NCBI GenBank assembly: GCA_002774875.1
Contig: PCYM01000001.1
Coordinates: 246,153-310,152, forward strand
Length of the DNA: 64,000 nucleotides
Reading direction: 5' to 3'
Source of the DNA: Candidatus Uhrbacteria bacterium CG10_big_fil_rev_8_21_14_0_10_50_16
GTDB taxonomy: Bacteria > Patescibacteriota > Patescibacteriia > UBA9934 > UBA11717
In this document: piece after piece, positions 6,598 through 50,221 of the stretch
Layout: each line of letters opens with the position of its first letter
Position numbering within the stretch: position 1 is the stretch's first letter
Program-made: the position numbers and the translations under genes
Notes under the pieces: model-generated
The model's input: the letters and a program-made list of their open reading frames with translations, nothing else
Database searches by the model: none
Told to the model about the DNA's origin: nothing

Positions 6598-6682
6598 TGG
6601 TGGGCCGGGAAGGACTCGAACCTTCGTAGGCAATGCCAGCAGGTTTACAGCCTGCCCTCGTTGACCGCTTGAGTACCGACCC
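6598..6682 (-). tRNA. tRNA-Tyr (anticodon GUA), long variable arm
   Basis: Hand-folded cloverleaf: acceptor GGGTCGG/CCGGCCC, anticodon loop CUGUAAA, T-arm GAAGG-TTCGAGT-CCTTC, encoded CCA, 85 nt. Confidence 0.8.
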
Positions 6683-6709
6683 ATAGATTGTTGCTTATCC
6701 AAAATTCAC

Positions 6710-6785
6710 TGGAGCCACCTATCGGACTCGAACCGATGACCTACGGTTTACAAAACCGTTGCTCTACCAACTGAGCTAAGGTGGC
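6710..6785 (-). tRNA. tRNA-Thr (anticodon UGU)
   Basis: Acceptor GCCACCT/AGGTGGC, anticodon stem ACGGT/ACCGT with loop TTTGTAA, T-arm ATCGG-TTCGAGT-CCGAT, discriminator U and encoded CCA, 76 nt. Confidence 0.8.
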
Positions 6786-18163: not shown

Positions 18164-18208
18164 TGGAGCCACGATCGGGAATCGAACCCGAGACCTCATC
18201 CTTACCAT
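18164..18208 (-). repeat. attR-like partial tRNA-Thr(GGU) copy (tRNA positions 32-76, intron-less)
   Basis: 45 nt identical, apart from one T-loop base, to the 3' part of the tRNA gene at 26306-26345, and extending through an uninterrupted ATGGTAA anticodon loop. Confidence 0.7.
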
Positions 18209-18413
18209 GAAGTTCCCATAGAAGATAATGGAGAAGAGACACTGTTTACGGAGTAAAACCACGATTTTTATCTCTAGTACCTGTCTTCTATGTAGACCAC
18301 TTTATTACCTGCAACAATAGCTCTGTTGAAAGGTTCTGATGTTCGTAATAATGTGTTAATTTTGGTAAATTGTATAGGTATTATATAGTAAAAAATTGTA
18401 TTACTCAAGCTTT

Positions 18414-18911
18414 TTACAAATTATATTTATGTAAAAATGAATCGGTTATTTCTTCCCCAAGCGTTATTCCCAGTATGGTCTTTGTATCATCTGGAGTATC
18501 TGTAGATCTTCGTGCTCGTACTTTAAGCTGGTCTAATTCTCTCATTCCATTTTCTGGTAAACGTGCCATTTTTGCAAAACTTTCGCGGCCACCTCGTCGC
18601 TTTTTCTGTATATCTTCGACACTTAAAATTTCGACACGCTTTACATCTATATACGTTGTCGTTTTCGGAAAATGTCGTGTCTGTACATCACACCATTCTT
18701 TTGGTTCAACAATTTTCGTCGTCCACCTTTTGCAGGAGCTTCCCCGTGAGGTAAGTACAATAAACGGGAAGATAGCTAACTCATCAGCTATCACCGTATT
18801 GGCTAGTTTGTATTTTACCTTCACATCACCCGTGCTTTCTTCCCTTGAGAACTCATCACGATATACCCAGCCACGCTCAACAATATTGGCCATGAGTATG
18901 GAGAGTTGCAT
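18414..18911 (-). CDS. hypothetical protein downstream of the Panacea-domain gene (candidate toxin partner)
   Basis: 165 aa ORF starting 5 nt after the upstream gene. No recognisable family. Confidence 0.35.
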   Translation of the reverse strand: MQLSILMANIVERGWVYRDEFSREESTGDVKVKYKLANTVIADELAIFPFIVLTSRGSSCKRWTTKIVEPKEWCDVQTRHFPKTTTYIDVKRVEILSVEDIQKKRRGGRESFAKMARLPENGMRELDQLKVRARRSTDTPDDTKTILGITLGEEITDSFLHKYNL

Positions 18912-18916
18912 GCTAT

Positions 18917-19393
18917 CTACGCTTCAAGATTAAGAACCTCGTTGATGTGTTCATTACCACCAAGAGTTGCACCCAAAGCTTGCATAGGTGCAGTCTTGTA
19001 CGCAATGTCTGTTAGAGCCTTTGCACCGTAACCCTTTAGTGACTCCATGATTTCGTTGAACATAGCTTCCTGGACTTCCGTAATAGAAAAATCGGTATCA
19101 GTAGGTTCTTCGTTAAAATTATATACAATGTATTCCTTCCCGTCAGAAGTATATTCCGTCGTCGCAATGGCGACACCGTCGTCTATCAAAGCCTTCAAAT
19201 CATGATATATCGCTTCGTCAAATGGACCATAGGTATAGCGTCGATACACATAGCCAAAATAAACATCCTGTTCTTTTTTTCTAGCAATGAGATCCAGAAG
19301 GTACGCTAACTTCATCAAAACCGTTACCGTGGGTCGCTCGTGTCTTTGAATTAGTTGAGCGATTAATTTTTGGCGGTTTGATAATTCTGGCAT
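18917..19393 (-). CDS. Panacea/SocA-like (DUF4065) antitoxin-type protein
   Basis: LMKLAYLLDL...YTYGPFDEAIYHDL resembles the Panacea domain core. Called from memory of the family, not from a search. Confidence 0.45.
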   Translation of the reverse strand: MPELSNRQKLIAQLIQRHERPTVTVLMKLAYLLDLIARKKEQDVYFGYVYRRYTYGPFDEAIYHDLKALIDDGVAIATTEYTSDGKEYIVYNFNEEPTDTDFSITEVQEAMFNEIMESLKGYGAKALTDIAYKTAPMQALGATLGGNEHINEVLNLEA

Positions 19394-19447
19394 ATAAACA
19401 AAGTTTACACGAACACTGAGAGCCAGTAAACGTGAGGTATGGATAAG

Positions 19448-20407
19448 TCACCCAACATACTTCCCATTCCCAAGCTTCTCCACGCTATCACGTAGGGCCT
19501 CTGTAGTGACCTGACGGCCGTATTTTAGCGTCATACGCGGGTCTACGTGTCCCATGAGTTGTTGTACGTGAGAAAGCGAAACACCTTGTGCGTAGAGGTT
19601 CGCAGCGTACGTGTGCCTACAGCGGTGCACAAAGAAATTCACTCCGCTCTTTTGTTTGATCAGGTCGGCCAAGTGTTTTAACCCATGCTTACCAAGCGGA
19701 CGGTTTCTTTTTGAAGACACAAACAGTGCATTCGTCGTGTACGCAATAGGATGATCCTCTCTTGCTCGTAGATACCGCTGAAGCTCGACCATAAGTTCCC
19801 TCTGCAAGGGAATAGTCCGTGTCAATTTGGATTTAGACGTCTTGCCTTCCACAGTAAGTGTCCGTTGTTCCATATTTACGCTCTCCAATGTAAATCCGAG
19901 AAGTTCATTACGTCGTATACCCGTTAGAATGAGTAGTTTTAGTATAGTGTAATTTCTACAGCGAAGAAATTCCGTTGCCCACTCATAATCGTACTGACAA
20001 AACTGCAACAATTTATGTATCTCTGTTTCTGTAAGGTAACGTCTATCCACATACTCTACATGCGGTTTGCTGATTGTTGGCAAGGGATTCTCCTTAATTT
20101 GTCGTGTGTCTACCAACCATCGCATGAACTTCCCCCACTTACTCCTGTATGTTAGAAGCGTGGAGTTTTTTACACCCTTATGTTGTTTTCCGTTGTTGAG
20201 GGTTCGTGTTCGCGTTTGGAGCGTCTCAAAAAGTCCGATCCAAAAACTACGTTCTTGCACAGATTTTAAATCAGCATCAGGAGCGAGCTTAAAAAGTAAC
20301 GAGAGAGCGGCACGATACCCCTCTAACGTATCTGGGCGAGCACCTGCTGTATATTGTTGTTCGCGCAAAAAATCGTCGAACAAGACCTGTAATTCATTCT
20401 GTTGCAT
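19448..20407 (-). CDS. tyrosine-type site-specific recombinase/integrase
   Basis: C-terminal HRCRHTYA...GH...Y catalytic motifs, 319 aa. Confidence 0.85.
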   Translation of the reverse strand: MQQNELQVLFDDFLREQQYTAGARPDTLEGYRAALSLLFKLAPDADLKSVQERSFWIGLFETLQTRTRTLNNGKQHKGVKNSTLLTYRSKWGKFMRWLVDTRQIKENPLPTISKPHVEYVDRRYLTETEIHKLLQFCQYDYEWATEFLRCRNYTILKLLILTGIRRNELLGFTLESVNMEQRTLTVEGKTSKSKLTRTIPLQRELMVELQRYLRAREDHPIAYTTNALFVSSKRNRPLGKHGLKHLADLIKQKSGVNFFVHRCRHTYAANLYAQGVSLSHVQQLMGHVDPRMTLKYGRQVTTEALRDSVEKLGNGKYVG

Positions 20408-20816
20408 ATAATTATTTTGATAAATAAAAACCGCCTAAAGACCCAACATCCAAAATGGACATTCGATTTTTAGGCGGTTGCACTTATTTTGTGGCACGGT
20501 GTACATGTTTACGCTTCGGGATCCATGTACAGATAACCCCGACGAGCGGTCAGCGTCTTACGACGTCAACTTGTTGCTCCACATTTGTTGCTCAACCCAA
20601 ATTGAAATGTACTACGTGATACATTCTATGCGAAAAAGTCTCTTTGTCAACGTATACTAGCTAACTTTGTGAGGTTTATTTACTTTGCAACTTTATGAGC
20701 TTTTACACTTTGTAAACTTTTGTCTGCTAGATCTAGCAAATAACCAATAATCCAAAAAACAAAAAATCGGATCCCTGTCCGATTTTTGTGTTGACCTCTT
20801 GTGTGGATAACTACAT

Positions 20817-21713
20817 TCAGCTACCGATGCCTTCTAGTCGTTCATTCACGTCTTGATAGCTCGCATCTTCCGCACATACACGTTCGTAATACCGTTTTGC
20901 ATCTTTTGGTTTGCCGAGTGCCTCACTACTTACTCCGAGTTGATAGAGCGTTTCTAACAAATCCTGATCCAAGTTACGCTTTCGTGTTGGAGCCTTTTTT
21001 AGTGTCTCAATGGCTAGCTCATGCTTTCCTTGCTGAGAAAAACACCGTGCCAGCAGGTTAAGATAACGCGTCTCTTTTTCATCCCCCTCACAAAGCTTTT
21101 GCAATAAGGAGGTCGCCTCCGAATAACGTTGCAACTCAACGAGGCTATCCGCTAAAGGATAGATCGCCCCCATTGGAGGTTCTTCCTCCTCTCGCAATGC
21201 TTGGAAACCTTTTACAGCCTCCGCATAGTTCTTGTCTGCATAATCCAACAAACAGATCAGGAAATGTGTCTCTCTATTTGGTTTTTGGATTTCATTTAGG
21301 ATTAATCGTGCCGAGTCAATATCATGCTTGTCTATTGCATTTTTCGCCCTCTTATTCTTATAGGGTGCCGTTTTTGTGTGTTTCCAATAGAAATAGCCAA
21401 TAACGGCCCAACCCAACAATCCAACTGGAGGGGCTATTACCGTCAGAATAAGCAATATAACCACGCCCACAAAGGTACCGCAGCCAACAAGACCACGTGT
21501 AAAATCTTGCGCACCAGTTGATGAGTTACCACCAGATATCTGCTGACGCGAATAGATACCCGTTCCAGGAATACTGCCATGAACGTAGCTACCTTTCGAA
21601 TTCATTCCAACACGTAAGCCTTTAACACCAGCGCTAACACCGAGACCGCTTTTGCTCAAGTTCAACTTAACACCCTTGCCTAGTCTAATTGATTTTCGGA
21701 ATCCATATGCCAT
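20817..21713 (-). CDS. DUF4236-TM-TPR repeat protein
   Basis: N-terminal MAYGFRKSIRLGKGVKLNLSKSG matches the DUF4236 signature, followed by a TM helix and TPR-like repeats. Confidence 0.5.
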   Translation of the reverse strand: MAYGFRKSIRLGKGVKLNLSKSGLGVSAGVKGLRVGMNSKGSYVHGSIPGTGIYSRQQISGGNSSTGAQDFTRGLVGCGTFVGVVILLILTVIAPPVGLLGWAVIGYFYWKHTKTAPYKNKRAKNAIDKHDIDSARLILNEIQKPNRETHFLICLLDYADKNYAEAVKGFQALREEEEPPMGAIYPLADSLVELQRYSEATSLLQKLCEGDEKETRYLNLLARCFSQQGKHELAIETLKKAPTRKRNLDQDLLETLYQLGVSSEALGKPKDAKRYYERVCAEDASYQDVNERLEGIGS

Positions 21714-21746
21714 ATATCTACATGGTCTCAGATAATGTTCGTTTCA

Positions 21747-22280
21747 TCAATTCCTTTCTGTAATCGTGGGCTCTGACAAAACCTCCCAATTGCTCACCAT
21801 CATGGGCGAGCCTCCTTTGTATCGCAAGTCAACCGTATAGTACAAACGCCCTTCTGTACCTAAGGCATTTGATGCGATGACGTATCCACTCATCTGATAC
21901 GTATCGCCCCCTGTACTAACCAATCTAGCCTCTGTACAGCTTGGCTTACGTGCTTCGTCTGGGTATTTTGTATAACCTTCAATAACAGCCCCTGCTACAA
22001 ACGCGTGAATATCACAAGCTGTTGGCTCACGATCCACTGACGTGGTCGTGCTGCTGCTCGCCGTGCTCTCTCCCGAGTAATCTCCGGGTTCGCTCACCGC
22101 AACAGCAACAATCATAATAAAGAACAAAATACCAAAGAAGACGAAAGTGCCTTTCATGTTAAATCCGCCTTTCTTGACCGTTGTCTGGCTAGGTGTGCCG
22201 ATGTCTGATTTGCAATGCTTGCAGTAAATAGCTTCTGCAATAATTTCTTCCGCGCACAGTGGGCATTTCTTTTTCGTCAT
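21747..22280 (-). CDS. zinc-ribbon membrane protein
   Basis: N-terminal CPLCAEE...CKHC ribbon, one TM helix, extracytoplasmic Ser/Thr-rich domain. Confidence 0.4.
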   Translation of the reverse strand: MTKKKCPLCAEEIIAEAIYCKHCKSDIGTPSQTTVKKGGFNMKGTFVFFGILFFIMIVAVAVSEPGDYSGESTASSSTTTSVDREPTACDIHAFVAGAVIEGYTKYPDEARKPSCTEARLVSTGGDTYQMSGYVIASNALGTEGRLYYTVDLRYKGGSPMMVSNWEVLSEPTITERN

Positions 22281-22281
22281 A

Positions 22282-22608
22282 CTACGACTTCAACACGTTA
22301 ATAATTGCGACGAGCGTTGGTCCACCAAAGAAAATCACGAATGGAAGAAATACACGTACGCGATGAAGCGTTTTTTCCGAGACACGATGCCGAATAAGTG
22401 GCAAGTAGTAGTCTGTTAAGGAAAGTGCAAACAAAGCCATTATAAACGCATTTTGAGCGTTCTCAGACGTAGGTTCTGATAGCAGAGTTAGCCCACCAAA
22501 AAACAACAGGATTCCGATCACGTTTCCAACTTTCGCTCCCAACGAACGTTGCTGTGTCTTGTTTGGCGTCGAGCCTGAATCATCAGCCTTTGTTTTAACG
22601 TTTGTCAT
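22282..22608 (-). CDS. small membrane protein
   Basis: 108 aa with three predicted TM helices. Starts 2 nt after the upstream gene. Confidence 0.35.
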   Translation of the reverse strand: MTNVKTKADDSGSTPNKTQQRSLGAKVGNVIGILLFFGGLTLLSEPTSENAQNAFIMALFALSLTDYYLPLIRHRVSEKTLHRVRVFLPFVIFFGGPTLVAIINVLKS

Positions 22609-22614
22609 GGTTTT

Positions 22615-22680
22615 TTAGCAGTGCTTGCACTTCACCGCCTCGTCTTGCACCTCTTCGGCACAATAAGGACATTTTTTCAT
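22615..22680 (-). CDS. 21-aa zinc-ribbon peptide MKKCPYCAEEVQDEAVKCKHC
   Basis: Short ORF below the ORF-track cutoff. Its motif duplicates the N-terminus of the 21747-22280 protein. Confidence 0.25.
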   Translation of the reverse strand: MKKCPYCAEEVQDEAVKCKHC

Positions 22681-22886
22681 AATATTGCGGTTTTATGGGG
22701 CGGTATACTAAAAGCCCGCCACCAGCGATACCCCCGAGGGGATACCTGCCACCCTTTCGGATGACAACCGCAATAGTGCTCTGATGACGAGCTCAGAATA
22801 CTATTGCGGATTTGATGCCATGCCCTGGAAACCAAGGTTTAGGCTAAATTGTAGTAGTATTGTATTAAATACCCATTAATAAATCA

Positions 22887-23519
22887 ATGCCTCCATCCTA
22901 TATATCTATGATAGATAAGAACACTCTTAGTTCCTTCGTAAAAGAAGTCGATCATGCTTACCAACAGTTTTCTGTTTGGAAATACTGCAACAACCAATAC
23001 GCAGAACATTGTGATAACTTTGAGGAAAAGCTAGTACAGCACTGGGCAACGTCCGTGGAAGAATTCATGCAAAACAACCGTACATTTCAAAACTTTTGGG
23101 AGGTTACCTTACCGTCGCTACAACATGCTTGGATGATATCTGTTTGTAGATTAATGGATCCTGCTTTCTTTCAAAACGATAAGACCAAGCCAAACCTTTC
23201 CTTGGATTACATTATTGAACATCTTGATAACGATGTCCTGATCAACCAGATCCGTTTATCTGCAAAGACACACAGCAGTTACACCAAACATATGAAAACA
23301 TGGCGAGACAAATACCTTGCCCATAATGATTTTAATTTTGCGGAGCAAACTATTGAGGCGGGATATGAAGACTACATAGAGTTCCTTGTCGAAACCATTA
23401 AAAACATCAAGAAACAATACCCACACCTTAAGGACTGCAATAACGTCGACCTTATTTGGTTGGATCGTGTTTCTGAAACAGGTGTAAAAGAGGTCTTCGA
23501 AAAGCTTTCTGTTGATTAA
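22887..23519 (+). CDS. hypothetical protein with an Rx5H HEPN-like motif (candidate Abi-type protein)
   Basis: 210 aa helical protein with WRDKYLAHND near the C-terminal half. Tentative. Confidence 0.35.
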   Translation: MPPSYISMIDKNTLSSFVKEVDHAYQQFSVWKYCNNQYAEHCDNFEEKLVQHWATSVEEFMQNNRTFQNFWEVTLPSLQHAWMISVCRLMDPAFFQNDKTKPNLSLDYIIEHLDNDVLINQIRLSAKTHSSYTKHMKTWRDKYLAHNDFNFAEQTIEAGYEDYIEFLVETIKNIKKQYPHLKDCNNVDLIWLDRVSETGVKEVFEKLSVD

Positions 23520-23532
23520 ACGCTGGGCACCA

Positions 23533-23554
23533 AACTTATAATGCGTTATAAGTC
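23533..23554. repeat. 22-bp recombinase-type site (9-bp inverted arms around a 4-bp core), left copy
   Basis: AACTTATAA-TGCG-TTATAAGTC. A 21-nt exact match, in inverted orientation, to 25353-25373. Confidence 0.65.
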
Positions 23555-23718
23555 TACGTGCTTGACCGTTTCTACCCCCCCTACCAGGGGTAGACGTTTT
23601 CGACGTTTATTCGATCGACCTATGCCGAATAAATACTAAGATTAGAGATAAATAAAAATCGTACTTTATCTACTTTGCGTGGTTTTTCTGTGGATAACCT
23701 TCCGATTCTTTCGGAAGA

Positions 23719-24705
23719 CTACGATACCAATGCTCTTCTTAGATTTTTAAAGTGAATAGTCTCACTTTGGTCCTTCGGGAACATCTCCAACAAGGTGTAC
23801 GGATAATATCCAGCAAGCCCACTGATAATAGTCGCGCCATATTTCACATCTTCTTCAACACGTTTTTTCCAATCTTTGGGCTGTGTCGAACTAATGACAT
23901 AGATACGTAATCCATGGTTTATTACACCGTCTGCAAGAACGGCGTTTATGTGTTCATCCCCGAAACCATAGCCTATAATAAGCATTTTTTTACTGTCTTC
24001 TTGAACAGCTGAGGAAAATAGATCGAAATACGCTTTTAGTAAAGGTTCAGATGTAATCGTGTGTACTTTATTCTTCCCAATAACCATCCTTGTGGACCCG
24101 TCAGAAGCAACCCAACCATAGGAACCATGAAGCTTAATATAAACTGGTCCAGCATGACCTCTGATGGCGGTTTCGACAAGATTGTTAACTTTATCTTCCG
24201 TTGGTAATACTAAGAAATCAGACTCCTCCAATGATGTCGTGCTCAGCCCGCCCTTTTGTGCATGAAATCCAGGCACCCCTGGGCATACACTTCCGCTCCT
24301 GCGTTCCATGAACAGGTCTTGATTCAGTGTGAAGAATACGCTAATTTTTTCTCTGCCACTATTGAATAAGCTGAGTAATCTATTTAATGTATACCAACAT
24401 ACAGGATGTGCTGAATCGTCTCGGAAAACCCAGTCCTTAGTGGCTATGTCTAGATTCTTATAAGCCTCTCTAACGGCACTCTGTATTCTCTCTTTATCCT
24501 CACAAGATACGGACTTGTCATCATTCACACGGCTGTACACGGATTCGTAGTCAAAGTCATCACACAGTAAACTCCTTAATTTCTCTGATGATTGAACATC
24601 TGGGTGATTGTATATTTGAGACCACATCTCTGAAGCCAAAAAACCACCAAAGTTTTTAGTAAACCCCGCCCCAGTCAGCAATATTAGGTTATGGTAATTA
24701 GACAT
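23719..24705 (-). CDS. SIR2-like domain protein (SIR2_2/defence-type, standalone)
   Basis: LLTGAGFTKNFGG Rossmann start, FTLNQD (the TTNYD-like motif), IKLHGS, IGYGFGDEHI. 328 aa. Overlaps the upstream gene by 8 nt. Confidence 0.65.
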   Translation of the reverse strand: MSNYHNLILLTGAGFTKNFGGFLASEMWSQIYNHPDVQSSEKLRSLLCDDFDYESVYSRVNDDKSVSCEDKERIQSAVREAYKNLDIATKDWVFRDDSAHPVCWYTLNRLLSLFNSGREKISVFFTLNQDLFMERRSGSVCPGVPGFHAQKGGLSTTSLEESDFLVLPTEDKVNNLVETAIRGHAGPVYIKLHGSYGWVASDGSTRMVIGKNKVHTITSEPLLKAYFDLFSSAVQEDSKKMLIIGYGFGDEHINAVLADGVINHGLRIYVISSTQPKDWKKRVEEDVKYGATIISGLAGYYPYTLLEMFPKDQSETIHFKNLRRALVS

Positions 24706-25384
24706 CTTTACCTTCCTCCTCTGGGGATGTCTCTTCTAGCCCCTTAGTCACCATGGACGGCAGAACGAACAGAAACTCTGCAAGAGCTTGAGCAAAGTTG
24801 ACAGTCAACTTTGCATCTTGGTAGCTAGGCATCATTGCATCATCGTCAGCATGTCGTTCTTCATTGGCCTCTAATCGTACTTGATGCGCCCAAGTGGACA
24901 TATCTTGGGTTATAAGATGCTTACCTGCCGCCTCATCTATTCGGCTGTATAATGAACCGTCTACGTAACCTTTTTCTTTCAACATCGCATCAACCGAACT
25001 TGCGGCAAGCATGATAGCACCAGAAGGCGCATGGAGACATTCTAATGCCTGCAAGAGGTAGGCCCTAGGCTTCTCTGGTATCACTTCATCTACACTCATG
25101 ACATTTGGATAGATTTCCAAAACAGCGCCCCCGGGATGTCTACTTGAACACACAACCACACCACCACAACGCTTGCAAACATACAGACCCCAATAACGTC
25201 GATTGTCACCTTTGTGATCGGCTGAGCCAACCCCATGCTCCAGTACCAAACTTGGGGTGTCTGTGGTGCAATGTGGACATCGATCCAGTTCAAGATTTTG
25301 GGATAAATTTGGCATACAATAGAAATTTGTGTAGATATTACCACATTTCTCGGACTTATAACGCATTATAAGTCGAGCTATCAT
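24698..25384 (-). CDS. zinc-ribbon + DUF4145-like (HEPN-related) protein
   Basis: N-terminal CPHC...CKRC ribbon. C-terminal helical domain with LKEKG...LYSRIDEA...AHQVRLEANEERH, resembling the DUF4145 R..(G/A)N...H signature. The start codon lies inside the 22-bp site. Confidence 0.5.
   Translation of the reverse strand: MIARLIMRYKSEKCGNIYTNFYCMPNLSQNLELDRCPHCTTDTPSLVLEHGVGSADHKGDNRRYWGLYVCKRCGGVVVCSSRHPGGAVLEIYPNVMSVDEVIPEKPRAYLLQALECLHAPSGAIMLAASSVDAMLKEKGYVDGSLYSRIDEAAGKHLITQDMSTWAHQVRLEANEERHADDDAMMPSYQDAKLTVNFAQALAEFLFVLPSMVTKGLEETSPEEEGKDV
25353..25374. repeat. 22-bp recombinase-type site, right copy (inverted)
   Basis: GACTTATAA-CGCA-TTATAAGTC. It encodes the last codons plus stop of the integrase and the first codons (MRYKS) of the DUF4145-like gene. 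Confidence 0.65.
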
Positions 25385-26273
25385 CCAATGGATGTTTGTT
25401 AATCTGTGTGCGCAGGTGTTCTGCTGAAGCGGCGAGGTAAATGCTTGTCGTTTTTAGGTCGGCATGACCTAGCATTTTTGAGAGAGAGTAAATGTCACAT
25501 CCGCCCTCTAGCATCATCGTAGCGAAGCTGTGACGTAGCTTGTGCACGCTGAATTTTATTCCTGACGCTTCCTTCATCTTCTCAACCAACCTCTTCATAC
25601 CTGTCCCCGTGAATCCAACGTTACGGTTAAGGGAGGCAAAGAACTCTGGGCAGGTTTTGTGTAGCCGTTTACGTTCTACAAGATAACGATCTAGACTCTC
25701 CTGTAATGCTGAGCAAATCGGCACTACGCGATCCTTTGACCCTTTGCCCTGTCGAATAAAGATAGAGCGGTTCTCTACATCTATATCGTTGTACTGCAGG
25801 TTAAGCAATTCCTGTTTTCGCAGTCCTGCATATAAGAATGTAGCAAAAATCGCATGATTGCGATACTTAAGGTACTTGTAAGGATAAGGGAAGTTCATAG
25901 CCGTTTCCAATATCCGCATCGCCTCTTGTTTGGTGAGCTTAGGAGGCAAACGCCGTTCAAGTTTTGGCATCTCCATTCCATCCGCAGGGTTCTCTTGCAT
26001 ATACCCCTGTTCCACACACCACCTGAAAAAGACGACAAAGCTCTTGTGGTACGTGATGAAGCTGTTAGCCGACCATTTGCGCGTTGTCCTACCATAGAGC
26101 ATGTAGCGCTCAAAACAAGGCTTAGTGACCTGCTGAAGCGTTTCTATGCCTTCTGTACGTATAAAGAATCCCACGGCGTTCTTATATCGCTGAATAGTCG
26201 TTGGTCTGTACCCACGAATAAACGAAGAGTGGTCACAAAATTGTCGCAACGCTGTTTGTATGTACATAAACAA
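25356..26273 (-). CDS. tyrosine-type integrase adjacent to the tRNA-Thr attachment site
   Basis: HKLRHSFAT...GH...Y catalytic box, 305 aa. A terminator hairpin separates it from the tRNA 3' end. Confidence 0.85.
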   Translation of the reverse strand: MFMYIQTALRQFCDHSSFIRGYRPTTIQRYKNAVGFFIRTEGIETLQQVTKPCFERYMLYGRTTRKWSANSFITYHKSFVVFFRWCVEQGYMQENPADGMEMPKLERRLPPKLTKQEAMRILETAMNFPYPYKYLKYRNHAIFATFLYAGLRKQELLNLQYNDIDVENRSIFIRQGKGSKDRVVPICSALQESLDRYLVERKRLHKTCPEFFASLNRNVGFTGTGMKRLVEKMKEASGIKFSVHKLRHSFATMMLEGGCDIYSLSKMLGHADLKTTSIYLAASAEHLRTQINKHPLDDSSTYNAL

Positions 26274-26305
26274 AAAATCCTGATGGTGAACATCAGAACC
26301 TTTCG

Positions 26306-26589
26306 TGGAGCCACGATCGGGATTCGAACCCGAGACCTCATCCTTCGCTTACACCCTAATTTATTTCGTCACGTATATAGGGACTAGACTGTATATTAGG
26401 CATATTCCCTAAGGAACTTAGCCCCCCTTGTCAGTCGTTCGGGCGTTTCTTCGATTGACGCCACGGTCTTACCCTTGTGACAGGGCTTTAACCGTTATTC
26501 GGGATTCACTCTACCGTTTCCAGTGGGGTGGGCTACTTTCTCGTATGAAAGTGACCATGGATGCGCTCTACCGACTGAGCTATCGCGGC
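26306..26589 (-). tRNA. tRNA-Thr (anticodon GGU) interrupted by a ~208-nt intron between positions 36 and 37
   Basis: Exon 1 at 26589-26554 (GCCGCGATAGCTCAGTCGGTAGAGCGCATCCATGGT). Exon 2 at 26345-26306 (AAGGATGAGGTCTCGGGTTCGAATCCCGATCGTGGCTCCA). Joined they give a canonical 76-nt cloverleaf with a G4-U69 wobble. The intron-less version of the same 3' part is present at 18164-18208. Confidence 0.6.
26346..26553 (-). ncRNA. putative group I-type self-splicing intron in the tRNA-Thr anticodon loop
   Basis: The 5' exon ends in U and the intron ends in G. A UAUACAGUCUAGUCC segment resembles the group I S/P7 region. No ORF inside. Confidence 0.35.
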
Positions 26590-26751
26590 TTAATTGTTTT
26601 CTTGGTATATGGTGAAAGCACCATCATTGTAATACAGAGGTGTCCCCTTCGGGGACTACTTTAGTAAAGGAAGTGGTATCTATCTCTCACACAACAGCCG
26701 AAACGGCTGTAGTCTTAGGGATAATACTCTTCTTAACTATAGACCTCTTTA

Positions 26752-26789
26752 TTACCATGGATGCGCTCTACCGACTGAGCTATCGCGGC
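26752..26789 (-). repeat. second copy of tRNA-Thr(GGU) positions 1-38 (pseudo-tRNA 5' fragment)
   Basis: A 36-nt exact repeat of exon 1 plus AA. It is followed by degenerate tRNA-like sequence and a 164-nt hairpin-rich spacer. Confidence 0.55.
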
Positions 26790-49999: not shown

Positions 50000-50028
50000 T
50001 TGACAGCCCTCATTAAGCCCTATATACT
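50000..50028 (+). promoter_or_regulatory. sigma70-like promoter TTGACA-N17-TATACT for the rplJ-rplL operon
   Basis: Exact -35 and a good -10. It leaves a ~190-nt leader before rplJ, the L10 leader position. Confidence 0.5.
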
Positions 50029-50221
50029 CCTCATAACCTTAACCGTAGACAACGGCTGCCTGAAAAGGCTTAATTGGCCGTCGAGGTAGAGAATCGTATA
50101 AAATCCTAGGATTTACACGCGTTTCTTCCGATGTCTGTGGTTTAGGGCCACAGGTTTTTTTAATTAGAAGTGGGATCCGGGACGGTGTTCTTCTCCCCTA
50201 TTCCTCAATTCTACAGATGGT

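What the first reader, a model, noticed from the sequence alone, without database searches (positions are those of the whole stretch)
26306..26589. tRNA-Thr(GGU) split by a ~208-nt intron immediately 3' of the anticodon (group I-like)
Joining 26589-26554 to 26345-26306 yields a 76-nt cloverleaf with the anticodon loop AUGGUAA. The chromosomal gene has 208 nt between positions 36 and 37. Upstream of the junction the exon ends in U. The intervening sequence ends in G and contains a UAUACAGUCUAGUCC stretch reminiscent of the group I P7/S region. Bacterial tRNA genes with self-splicing group I introns are uncommon. From memory of the Azoarcus tRNA-Ile and Agrobacterium tRNA-Arg cases, which I cannot verify here, position 36/37 is an intron site for that class. 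The element-borne copy of the 3' part is intron-less, which independently defines the exon boundary.
Basis: partly seen in the sequence, partly recalled or inferred. Interest (0 to 1): 0.7.

Follow-up and report, generated by a model that had tools for sequence, protein, structure and literature searches.

The report
Group I intron in island-borne tRNA-Thr
A threonine tRNA gene of a candidate-phyla-radiation bacterium is split by a 208-base intron of an already reported, very divergent group I family, and the gene sits on an 8.5-kb mobile island that broke the cell's own intron-free copy and replaces it.

Summary
On the minus strand, 26589-26554 plus 26345-26306 join into a canonical 76-nt tRNA-Thr(GGU). 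The 208 nt between positions 36 and 37 follow a U and end in G. Rfam's group I model does not hit the window. In 110 metagenomic tRNA-Thr(GGU) genes from a truncated scan the insert is a conserved RNA with the group I helix order: P1 with a U.G wobble at the splice site, P2, a P3/P7 pseudoknot, P4-P6, P8 and P9. On 40 sequences, 89% of cells pair, against 33-45% for slid controls, and 43 of 62 pairs show compensatory changes. The host is a Candidatus Uhrbacteria bacterium (Patescibacteria). The literature already reports "divergent group I introns" at 36/37 of tRNA-Thr(GGU) in that phylum, missed by RF00028. Self-splicing of this family is untested in the papers I could read.

The context reading was reversed. 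A close relative has an intron-less tRNA-Thr at this site. In the window that gene is split at its anticodon loop (core CATGGTAA) by an ~8.55-kb integrase island, and the intron-bearing gene is the island's own copy. This resembles "tRNA-dependent lysogeny". Of eight islands sampled from the integrase side, three carry the intron.

The parts
26554..26589 (-). 5' exon of tRNA-Thr(GGU), tRNA positions 1-36, ending in U36
   Evidence: Sequence read. ARAGORN on the joined exons gives a 76-nt tRNA-Thr(ggt).
26346..26553 (-). 208-nt intron of the divergent group I family, with no ORF. Omega-G is at 26346.
   Evidence: Family alignment and covariation. Family model R1 scores 192.6 bits. The window deviates at 1 of 93 columns that are at least 90% conserved.
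26306..26345 (-). 3' exon of tRNA-Thr(GGU), positions 37-76
26531..26556 (-). P1 hairpin. Exon GGU pairs with the internal guide GCC, with a U36.G wobble at the 5' splice site. It continues into the extension ACUUUC/GAAAGU and the loop AUACGA.
   Evidence: Hand fold, RNAfold and RNAalifold. The three basal pairs G-C, G-C, U.G are kept in 38-39 of 40 sequences, and the distal stem covaries.
26507..26530 (-). P2 hairpin with a GAAA tetraloop (L2)
   Evidence: 9 of 10 pairs show compensatory changes. L2 is GNRA in 96 of 100 family members.
26387..26504 (-). Catalytic-core region: P3 (26504-26501 with 26427-26424), P4 (26495-26490 with 26468-26463), P5, P6 (26462-26458 with 26446-26442), P7 (26436-26432 GACUG with 26391-26387 CAGUC), P8 (26423-26399) and J8/7 UAAUAUA
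   Evidence: P3 forms a pseudoknot with P7, and three of its pairs show C-G to U-A changes. P4 is invariant although it was not in the search pattern. P5, P6 and P8 covary.
26399..26423 (-). P8 with a GCUAAG...UAUGC internal loop of the 11-nt tetraloop-receptor type
   Evidence: Sequence. It also matches a receptor-like stretch of the GEBRO model. GAAA in L2 co-occurs with a receptor-like P8: 24 of 44 against 2 of 56, Fisher p = 4e-9, not corrected for phylogeny.
26354..26382 (-). P9 hairpin (CCCUA/UAGGG), followed by the conserved 3' tail UGUAAGCG
   Evidence: 98.5% of cells are paired and 3 of 5 pairs have compensatory changes. The tail is TGTAAGCG in 66 of 110 sequences.
26741..26789 (-). 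attL: remnant of the chromosomal tRNA-Thr gene. Positions 1-38 are intact. The island sequence TAAAGAGGTCT follows, which does not rebuild the anticodon stem. The common core CATGGTAA is at 26759-26752.
   Evidence: Relative L249 is collinear through TPR and the tRNA down to window 26741. The same junction motif occurs in L160, L164, L212, L218, L254, L257, L340 and L341, and a variant of it in L339.
18164..18209 (-). attR: core CATGGTAA (18209-18202) and the displaced chromosomal 3' part of tRNA-Thr (positions 32-76, intron-less). The original terminator and downstream flank follow.
   Evidence: It is 97.8% identical to the 3' part and downstream flank of the intron-less gene in L249.
18210..26751 (-). 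Integrated island of about 8.55 kb. It carries the intron-bearing tRNA-Thr, integrase 1, DUF4145, a SIR2-like protein, HEPN/AbiU2, a LOOT RNA, a DUF4236/TPR protein, integrase 2 and a SocA/Panacea-domain protein.
   Evidence: It is an insertion relative to L249. Gene content comes from the Pfam marks on identical contigs, PADLOC SIR2 hits and the LOOT RNA hit.
25356..26273 (-). Tyrosine recombinase (integrase 1), starting about 30 nt downstream of the tRNA on the same strand
   Evidence: Pfam Phage_int_SAM_4 and Phage_integrase. Homologues at 51-75% identity sit directly downstream of a tRNA-Thr(GGU) in 14 other loci.
19448..20407 (-). Second tyrosine recombinase, near the attR end of the island
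   Evidence: Pfam Phage_integrase. L218 has a homologue at the equivalent place.

Best explanation
The 208 nt are a small, ORF-less self-splicing intron of the group I kind. It belongs to the divergent family that interrupts tRNA-Thr(GGU) between U36 and A37 in Patescibacteria.

Inferred mechanism:
- The pre-tRNA folds so that exon GGU pairs with the guide GCC in P1, giving a U36.G wobble.
- A free guanosine bound at the G-C pair of P7 (GACUG/CAGUC, next to a bulge) attacks after U36.
- The terminal G (26346) then takes that site.
- The 3'-OH of U36 attacks before A37, which restores the anticodon loop AUGGUAA.

The gene is not the ancestral chromosomal one. An ~8.55-kb island with a tyrosine integrase recombined with the chromosomal, intron-less tRNA-Thr gene through an 8-bp core (CATGGTAA) in the anticodon loop. 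The junction does not rebuild a tRNA. The island supplies a complete tRNA-Thr(GGU) of its own about 160 nt inside attL, and in this island that copy carries the intron.

Shown here: exon boundaries, the conserved covarying structure, the family's distribution, the insertion relative to a close relative, and the recurrent island layout. Inferred: catalysis, expression, and that the island copy is the working tRNA-Thr(GGU).
For: Intron:
- The joined exons give a canonical tRNA.
Lengths are 170-256 nt.
- De novo RNAalifold recovers P1, P2, P4-P9.
- For the hand structure with the P3/P7 pseudoknot on a MAFFT alignment of 40 sequences, 89.1% of cells pair, against 33-45% when slid. 43 of 62 pairs have compensatory changes. 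The covariation score is 0.409, against 0.10 or less for slid controls, and 0 of 500 shuffles reach it.
- L2 is GNRA, and its identity co-varies with a receptor-like loop in P8.
- RF00028 gives weak full-length hits exactly on the intron, on the right strand, in three members: 21.4, 19.4 and 15.4 bits.
- The host is Candidatus Uhrbacteria. PMC13011429 reports divergent group I introns at 36/37 of tRNA-Thr(GGU) in Patescibacteria. They are missed by RF00028, miscalled Arg(GCG) 34/35 by ARAGORN (the same miscall as), and found by the tFind model.
- The Williams 2020 preprint lists a Thr.5Ug class.

Island:
- L249 has an intron-less gene at the syntenic site, and so do L251 and L252.
- BLAST places an insertion between 26741 and 18209.
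- The same layout occurs in L160, L164, L212 and L218, and in 8 of 8 loci sampled from the integrase side.
Against: - No catalytic test exists for this family in the papers I could read. PMC13011429 tested only the Asn and Asp introns.
- RF00028 gives no hit in the window even at E <= 10.
- A model built from this family does not detect classical tRNA group I introns: 3.8 bits, E 1.8, with filters off. Assignment to group I therefore rests on architecture and splice-site features, not on demonstrable sequence homology.
- P7 and part of J8/7 were fixed by my search pattern, so their invariance is uninformative.
- I could not check that the three published genomes carry this same family.
- A two-event history for the island junctions is not strictly excluded.
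- I could not check the rest of the genome for another tRNA-Thr(GGU).
Confidence: 0.85

Rival explanations
1. The tRNA gene is a pseudogene disrupted by a non-splicing insertion, such as a small mobile element or recombination debris.
For: Standard tools do not call the gene. Rfam finds no group I core in the window. The locus is full of recombination scars. In L254, ARAGORN in intron mode produces a false 'intron' by joining an attL 5' half to the island tRNA, so such artefacts do occur at these loci.
Against: The insert is a conserved, covarying structure in 100 distinct sequences. It always lies at the same phosphodiester bond of an otherwise perfect tRNA-Thr(GGU). It has no terminal inverted repeats or target duplication. 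The window copy keeps 92 of 93 highly conserved columns. It is the only intact tRNA-Thr(GGU) at a locus where the chromosomal copy is broken.
Confidence: 0.04
2. It is a real, spliced intron of a structured-RNA class distinct from group I. Either the chemistry differs or the RNA needs a protein, and it only mimics the helix order of group I.
For: There is no significant covariance-model link in either direction. P3 is short (4 bp), and J3/4 (5 nt), J6/7 and J7/3 (ACAA) are longer than in the classical IC3 alignment. The published tree puts these introns on a long branch (PMC13011429).
Against: All positional hallmarks of group I are present together: a U.G wobble in P1 formed with a guide directly downstream, a terminal G, the P3/P7 pseudoknot, the P4-P6 stack, J8/7 of the form AAGAUA followed by CAGUC, and a GNRA L2 with a P8 receptor. 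The weak RF00028 hits fall exactly on the intron. The tFind group I model is reported to detect the Patescibacteria tRNA-Thr introns (PMC13011429).
Confidence: 0.08
3. The intron-bearing gene is the chromosomal gene. The island integrated into its 3' exon, and the upstream 5' half is a scar of an older, unrelated event.
For: A tRNA directly followed by an integrase, with a 3' partial copy at the far end, is the textbook arrangement. The single T-loop mismatch between the gene and the distal copy fits either model.
Against: The 5' half at 26789 sits at the ancestral position, 11 nt after the TPR stop, as in L249. The two junctions share only CATGGTAA. The junction motif TGGTAA+TAAAnAGGTC, followed 130-190 nt later by a complete tRNA-Thr and the integrase, recurs in 14 independent loci with or without the intron. 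One integration explains it all.
Confidence: 0.08

Closest known systems
'Divergent group I introns' in tRNA-Thr(GGU) of Patescibacteria (term attributed to Castelle et al. 2018, Nat Rev Microbiol; analysed in Nakagawa et al. 2026, mSystems, PMC13011429)
   Same: Same phylum, same tRNA and anticodon, and same 36/37 site. Length is about 200 nt. RF00028 does not detect it. ARAGORN makes the same miscall, Arg(GCG) at 34/35.
   Different: I could not compare sequences, because none are in the held supplements. The paper counts three cases in 95 complete genomes, whereas a metagenome scan here hit its limit at 120 loci. The paper groups them with subgroup IA. I see no P7.1/P7.2 and an IC3-like L2-P8 contact. 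The paper does not mention island carriage.
Thr.5Ug class of tFind (Williams 2020, bioRxiv 10.1101/2020.01.27.920355)
   Same: tRNA-Thr interrupted after the fifth loop nucleotide, with U at -1 and a terminal G.
   Different: The seed member Rba53.Thr.5Ug has a classical IC3 core (AAAUUCGGGGAAA ... GUAGAGACCA ... AAGGGAUGGUCC). The window has GAAUAACGGUUAAA ... CGAACGACUGACAA ... UAAUAUACAGUCUAG. At least two unrelated-looking intron lineages therefore use this site.
Azoarcus tRNA-Ile(CAU) and alpha-proteobacterial tRNA-Arg(CCU) IC3 introns (Reinhold-Hurek and Shub 1992); examples here are L108 and L021
   Same: Insertion after position 36, about 200 nt, no ORF, a short P1 with U.G, a GAAA L2 and a tetraloop receptor in P8. 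The structural details of Azoarcus are from my own knowledge.
   Different: RF00028 gives 36.8 and 42.8 bits for those and nothing for the window. The family model R1 gives them 3.8 bits. P3 is shorter and the joining regions differ.
tRNA-dependent lysogeny of actinobacteriophages (Guerrero-Bustamante and Hatfull 2024, mBio, PMC10865867)
   Same: A tyrosine integrase uses a short common core inside a host tRNA gene. Integration does not rebuild the tRNA. [quoted passage not shown]
   Different: Here the element is a small island without phage structural genes, in Patescibacteria. Its integrase family has no close relative in IMG/VR (31% identity or less). In a subset of islands the replacement tRNA carries a group I intron that lies inside the att core. 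Dependence on the island tRNA is inferred, not tested.

Membership tests
Group I intron | 5' splice site follows a U that forms a U.G wobble in P1 with an internal guide sequence | tested here: met
   Exon GGU pairs with GCC. U.G is kept in 38 of 40 sequences, and the flanking G-C pairs in 38-39 of 40.
Group I intron | Intron ends in G (omega-G) | tested here: met
   G at 26346. With ARAGORN-derived boundaries, 103 of 112 end in G followed by AA. The rest were length miscalls, resolved.
Group I intron | Helices P1-P9 in canonical order, with the P3/P7 pseudoknot and the P4-P6 stack | tested here: met
   89.1% of cells paired, against 33-45% when slid. 43 of 62 pairs have compensatory changes, including three pairs of P3. 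Eight helices are recovered de novo.
Group I intron | Guanosine-binding G-C pair in P7 next to a bulged nucleotide, and a conserved J8/7 | tested here: inconclusive
   The sequence fits: A-(C)-GACUG with CAGUC-U, and J8/7 AAGAUA or UAAUAUA. These bases were fixed by the search pattern, so there is no independent variation to test.
Group I intron | Match to the Rfam model RF00028 at gathering score (50 bits) | tested here: not met
   No hit in the window at E <= 10. The best family members reach 21.4, 19.4 and 15.4 bits. Classical tRNA introns also fall below the threshold, at 42.8 and 36.8 bits.
Group I intron | Detectable relatedness to classical bacterial tRNA group I introns by a covariance model | tested here: not met
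   Model R1 of this family scores L021 and L108 at 3.8 bits or less, E 1.8, filters off. The tFind model is reported to detect the Patescibacteria Thr introns (PMC13011429), but it could not be run here.
Group I intron | Guanosine-initiated two-step self-splicing | not testable with these tools
   No experiment on this family appears in the papers read. PMC13011429 tested the Asn and Asp introns only.
Patescibacteria tRNA-Thr(GGU) divergent group I intron family | Host phylum, host tRNA, 36/37 site, about 200 nt, invisible to RF00028, ARAGORN miscall as Arg(GCG) 34/35 | tested here: met
   compared with Table 1 and the text of PMC13011429.
Patescibacteria tRNA-Thr(GGU) divergent group I intron family | Sequence similarity to the published members | not testable with these tools
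   The sequences are not in the held supplements, and the genomes cannot be fetched.
tRNA-dependent integration (as in tRNA-dependent lysogeny) | [quoted passage not shown] | tested here: met
   The core is CATGGTAA (8 bp). attL continues TAAAGAGGTCT instead of GGATGAGGTCT, and no tRNA is called there.
tRNA-dependent integration (as in tRNA-dependent lysogeny) | [quoted passage not shown] | tested here: met
   A complete tRNA-Thr(GGU) lies 160 nt inside attL. The same holds in 14 other loci.
tRNA-dependent integration (as in tRNA-dependent lysogeny) | The element's tRNA is required for survival of the host carrying the element | not testable with these tools
   This needs genetics, or at least the complete genome, to show that no other tRNA-Thr(GGU) exists.

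The most novel reading that the evidence does not exclude
A widespread family of Patescibacteria islands integrates into the anticodon loop of tRNA-Thr(GGU), destroys the gene and substitutes its own copy. When that copy carries the homing-endonuclease-less group I intron, the island acts as the intron's vehicle: the intron spreads by allele replacement rather than by homing. Because the intron sits inside the 8-bp att core (CATGGT|AA), any intron-bearing allele, chromosomal or island-borne, is no longer a target for this integrase family. The intron would then double as immunity against (further) integration.
Probability: 0.3. Interest if true: 0.7.

Novelty: new member of a known kind. Interest (0 to 1): 0.42.

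Why it matters
The intron itself adds one more member to a described but biochemically untested family. Three points have some value:

- The family is far more common in metagenomes than the three complete-genome cases suggest. The comparative data give a secondary-structure model with a P3/P7 pseudoknot that is ready for a splicing assay.
- Standard tools (Rfam, default ARAGORN) miss the gene. Genomes of this group can therefore appear to lack tRNA-Thr(GGU), or show a false tRNA-Arg(GCG).
- The intron-bearing gene is cargo of an island that breaks the host's intron-less gene. This extends "tRNA-dependent lysogeny" to small islands of Patescibacteria. It also offers a testable route by which an intron without a homing endonuclease could move between lineages. 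One intron-bearing island lies in a 3.5-Mb Zixiibacteriota genome record.

Tried and rejected
- **Rfam search.** Searches at gathering and at E <= 10 gave no group I hit in the window. I rejected this as evidence against a group I intron after the control on classical introns.
- **First genome-collection scan.** I used a general pattern (D-arm, 190-220 nt gap, T-arm). Only three real intron-tRNAs were recovered by filtering, so I have no systematic taxonomic census.
- **First boundary script.** It had an index error, corrected.
- **Castelle et al. 2018.** Not held, so I could not check whether splicing was ever shown.
- **Supplements of PMC13011429.** They hold no intron sequences.
- **Search for the integrase family in IMG/VR.** Nothing was found with one sequence, and only distant integrases (31% identity or less) with an alignment.
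- **Family model R1 against classical introns.** No significant hit.
- **Idea that the island needs the intron to protect its own tRNA from its integrase.** Weakened, because 5 of 8 islands sampled from the integrase side carry an intron-less tRNA-Thr with an intact core.
- **Promoter scan of the spacer.** Nothing found.
- **MITE or IS-type insertion.** Considered and rejected: there are no inverted ends and no target duplication.
- **Attempt to rebuild the ancestral tRNA from attL plus attR.** I mis-sliced it and do not use it. The intron-less gene of L249 serves instead.

Full report
**1. The observation**

On the minus strand the window reads GCCGCGATAGCTCAGTCGGTAGAGCGCATCCATGGT at 26589-26554. 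An insert of 208 nt follows at 26553-26346. Then AAGGATGAGGTCTCGGGTTCGAATCCCGATCGTGGCTCCA lies at 26345-26306. The flanking bases differ, so the boundary cannot slide.

ARAGORN calls the joined exons a 76-nt tRNA-Thr(ggt) with anticodon loop AUGGUAA. Default ARAGORN and the Rfam tRNA model do not see the interrupted gene. Shuffles give no chance matches for either half.

Six metagenome contigs carry the same region with an identical intron. Three of them were aligned across the whole region, and they differ by a single base.

**2. Is the insert a structured RNA, and which kind?**

Rfam's Intron_gpI gives no hit in the window, even at E <= 10 on 1 kb. That test is weak. The same model scores a classical tRNA-Arg(CCU) intron (L021) at 42.8 bits and a tRNA-Ile/Met(CAU) intron (L108) at 36.8 bits. 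Both are below its 50-bit threshold.

RNAfold of the window sequence already gives a series of hairpins in the group I order.

A scan of public genomes found one homologue in a tRNA-Thr(GGU) gene at the same site (L089). I then scanned metagenomes for the two strands of the putative P7 (ACGACTGACAA ... ATACAGTCTAG).
- In 110 of these loci I could set the boundaries.
- All 110 are tRNA-Thr(GGU) genes interrupted after U36. The boundary search itself required a terminal G followed by AA.
- With ARAGORN-derived boundaries, 103 of 112 already end in G followed by AA.
- There are 100 distinct introns, of 170-256 nt, too short for a homing endonuclease gene.
- Identity to the window copy is only 44-67%.

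RNAalifold on all 100 recovers P1, P2, P4, P5, P6, P7, P8 and P9 without guidance.

I wrote the structure on the window sequence, including the P3/P7 pseudoknot, and projected it on a MAFFT alignment of 40 diverse members (A3). The counts are:

| Measure | Named structure | Controls |
|---|---|---|
| Cells that form a standard pair | 89.1% | 33-45% with the 3' partners slid by 1-3 columns |
| Pairs with compensatory changes | 43 of 62 | - |
| Covariation score | 0.409 | 0.10 or less (slid) |
| Shuffles reaching the observed value, on each of the five measures | - | 0 of 500 |

Per-helix points from the same call:
- The three basal pairs of P1, G-C, G-C and U36.G, are kept in 38-39 of 40 sequences.
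- P3 has C-G to U-A exchanges at three pairs.
- P4 (ACGGUU/GACCGU) is invariant although it was not in the search pattern.
- P2, P5, P6, P8 and P9 covary heavily.

L2 is a GNRA tetraloop in 96 of 100 sequences. GAAA in L2 goes with a receptor-like internal loop in P8: 24 of 44, against 2 of 56 for other loops (p = 4e-9, not corrected for phylogeny). The window has GCUAAG...UAUGC in P8. This is the kind of L2-P8 contact known from the Azoarcus intron (my own knowledge).

The window copy departs from only 1 of 93 columns that are at least 90% conserved, so it looks intact.

**3. Limits of the group I assignment**

RF00028 gives only weak hits. They are full-length and fall exactly on the intron, in 3 of the 21 other family members tested: 21.4, 19.4 and 15.4 bits.

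A model built from this family (R1) finds new members at 152-178 bits. It does not find the classical introns of L021 and L108: 3.8 bits, E 1.8, with filters off.

The assignment therefore rests on architecture and splice-site features, not on demonstrable sequence homology. P7 and part of J8/7 were fixed by my pattern, so they cannot be tested for variation.

**4. What is known**

The triose-phosphate isomerase encoded next to the locus is 100% identical to a protein of a Candidatus Uhrbacteria bacterium, a member of Patescibacteria.

Nakagawa et al. 2026 (PMC13011429) report tRNA-Thr(GGU) genes with "divergent group I introns" at 36/37 in three of 95 complete Patescibacteria genomes. They attribute the term to Castelle et al. 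2018, which I could not read. According to that paper:
- RF00028 does not detect them;
- ARAGORN miscalls two of the three as Arg(GCG) 34/35;
- the tFind model finds them.

ARAGORN makes the same miscall on this family. Splicing was tested there only for the Asn and Asp introns.

The Williams 2020 preprint lists a Thr.5Ug class. Its seed member has a classical IC3 core that looks unlike this one.

The window's intron is thus another member of a described family.

**5.

Besides the interrupted gene there are two partial copies:
- tRNA positions 1-38 at 26789-26752, continuing with partial similarity to about position 49;
- positions 32-76, intron-less, at 18208-18164.

In the closest relative with an available contig (L249, Uhrbacteria GCA_003509895.1, isomerase 86% identical) an intron-less tRNA-Thr(GGU) lies directly after the TPR gene. 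A terminator and flank follow it. In the window, that same terminator and flank follow the partial copy at 18164. Two more distant relatives are also intron-less at this site.

BLAST shows the insertion:
- L249 3-3377 aligns with window 30164-26741.
- L249 3359-3447 aligns with window 18209-18121, at 97.8% identity.
- Synteny then continues downstream.

The window therefore has an insertion of about 8.55 kb (26751-18210). It is bounded by the shared core CATGGTAA, which is the anticodon loop. The intron-bearing tRNA gene lies inside the insertion, about 160 nt from attL.

The attL junction (…CATCC ATGGTAA TAAAGAGGTCT…) cannot form the anticodon stem, and nothing calls a tRNA there.

The island encodes an integrase directly downstream of the tRNA. 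It also encodes DUF4145, SIR2-like and HEPN/AbiU2 proteins, a LOOT RNA, a second integrase and a SocA/Panacea-domain protein.

**6. The layout recurs**

Among the intron loci, six have a homologue of integrase 1 (51-60% identity) 31-69 nt downstream of the tRNA.
- Four of the six show the upstream 5' half followed by the junction TGGTAA+TAAAnAGGTC.
- L218 also shows the distal 3' copy, 11.4 kb away.
- Of 63 intron loci with at least 1.5 kb downstream, 60 have no such integrase. Most intron-bearing genes therefore appear not to be on an island of this family.

Starting instead from the integrase, the family is large: 1660 proteins at E <= 1e-30. I sampled eight loci.
- All eight have the att-like junction, a spacer of 130-190 nt, a complete tRNA-Thr(GGU) and then the integrase.
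- Five show a host 5' half at the junction.
- Three carry the intron (L256, L339, L340) and five do not.

In all ten junctions with a host 5' half, the loop reads through TGGTAA uninterrupted, so the target allele was intron-less.

L256 is from a 3.5-Mb genome record labelled Zixiibacteriota.

This is the logic of tRNA-dependent lysogeny (Guerrero-Bustamante and Hatfull 2024, PMC10865867): a short core, no rebuilt tRNA, and an element-borne tRNA of the same isotype. I found no paper that links it to Patescibacteria or to introns.

**7. Interpretation and scores**

| Claim | Confidence |
|---|---|
| The 208 nt are an intron of the group I kind belonging to the known Patescibacteria tRNA-Thr family | about 0.85 |
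| The gene is island cargo that replaces a broken chromosomal gene | about 0.85 |
| The island spreads the intron, and the intron blocks integration by splitting the att core | about 0.3 |

The third claim is inference only. The idea that the island needs the intron for its own protection is weakened by the five intron-less islands.

The intron is a new member of a known kind. The island arrangement is a new variant of a known kind. Overall interest is moderate.

Noticed in passing
window 22727-22845 (-): A LOOT RNA (Rfam RF03000, 69.1 bits, above gathering) lies inside the integrated island, between the HEPN/AbiU2 gene and small ORFs. Whether LOOT RNAs are generally island cargo was not examined.
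   Followed up: no
window 18210-26751: The island cargo looks like defence or addiction genes: a SIR2-like protein (PADLOC SIR2 models, E 1.7e-11), DUF4145, HEPN AbiU2, and a SocA/Panacea-domain protein with weak DarG and PDC-M19A hits. There are two tyrosine recombinases, one at each end.
   Followed up: partly
window 26590-26751 (-), and the equivalent spacers in L160, L164, L212, L218: The 130-190-nt spacer between the att junction and the island's tRNA holds hairpins (ACAGCCGTTTCGGCTGT and GTCCCCGAAGGGGAC in the window). In some islands it holds AGGTCGCGGG-TTC, which looks like a decayed variable loop and T arm. The consensus scan found no promoter. Its role (arm sites, promoter, or relic of a once-restoring attP) is unexplained.
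   Followed up: partly
L254 about 2178-2461: ARAGORN in intron mode calls a false tRNA-Thr 'intron' of 187 nt by joining the attL 5' half to the 3' half of the island's intron-less tRNA. At such islands, split-tRNA callers can invent introns.
   Followed up: yes
L256 2190-2417 (NCBI LS998015.1, 3.5-Mb record labelled Candidatus Zixiibacteriota): An intron-bearing tRNA-Thr(GGU) of this family (157.9 bits with model R1) sits upstream of an integrase 64% identical to the window's. It lies in a genome outside Patescibacteria. The att-like junction there is not preceded by a tRNA 5' half.
   Followed up: partly
L195 (contig Ga0265327_10000073, 214 kb), about 130 nt upstream of the tRNA: An attP-like site (TTTAATGGTAAAGAACTGGTCTACC) without a host tRNA half precedes the intron-bearing tRNA. 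A homologue of integrase 2 lies 2.7 kb upstream. This is the order expected if the two island ends were joined. L255, L256 and L338 have similar junctions. Their state (secondary site, tandem copy or assembly artefact) is unknown.
   Followed up: no
L008 1109-1160 (copy of window 26789-26741): The only difference found between the contigs of this organism is a G-to-A change in the D stem of the orphan 5' half. This fits loss of constraint on that fragment, but it is a single observation.
   Followed up: no
L089 (CALLKE010000091.1, 1378 bp, labelled uncultured Pedobacter sp.): A member of the intron family lies on a very short contig binned with a Bacteroidota MAG. This is probably a binning error rather than a true host.
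   Followed up: no
window 6598-6785 (-) and 50025-50171 (+): Ordinary tRNA-Tyr(GUA) and tRNA-Thr(UGU) genes, and a ribosomal protein L10 leader (63.1 bits). There is no other tRNA-Thr(GGU) in the window.
   Followed up: no
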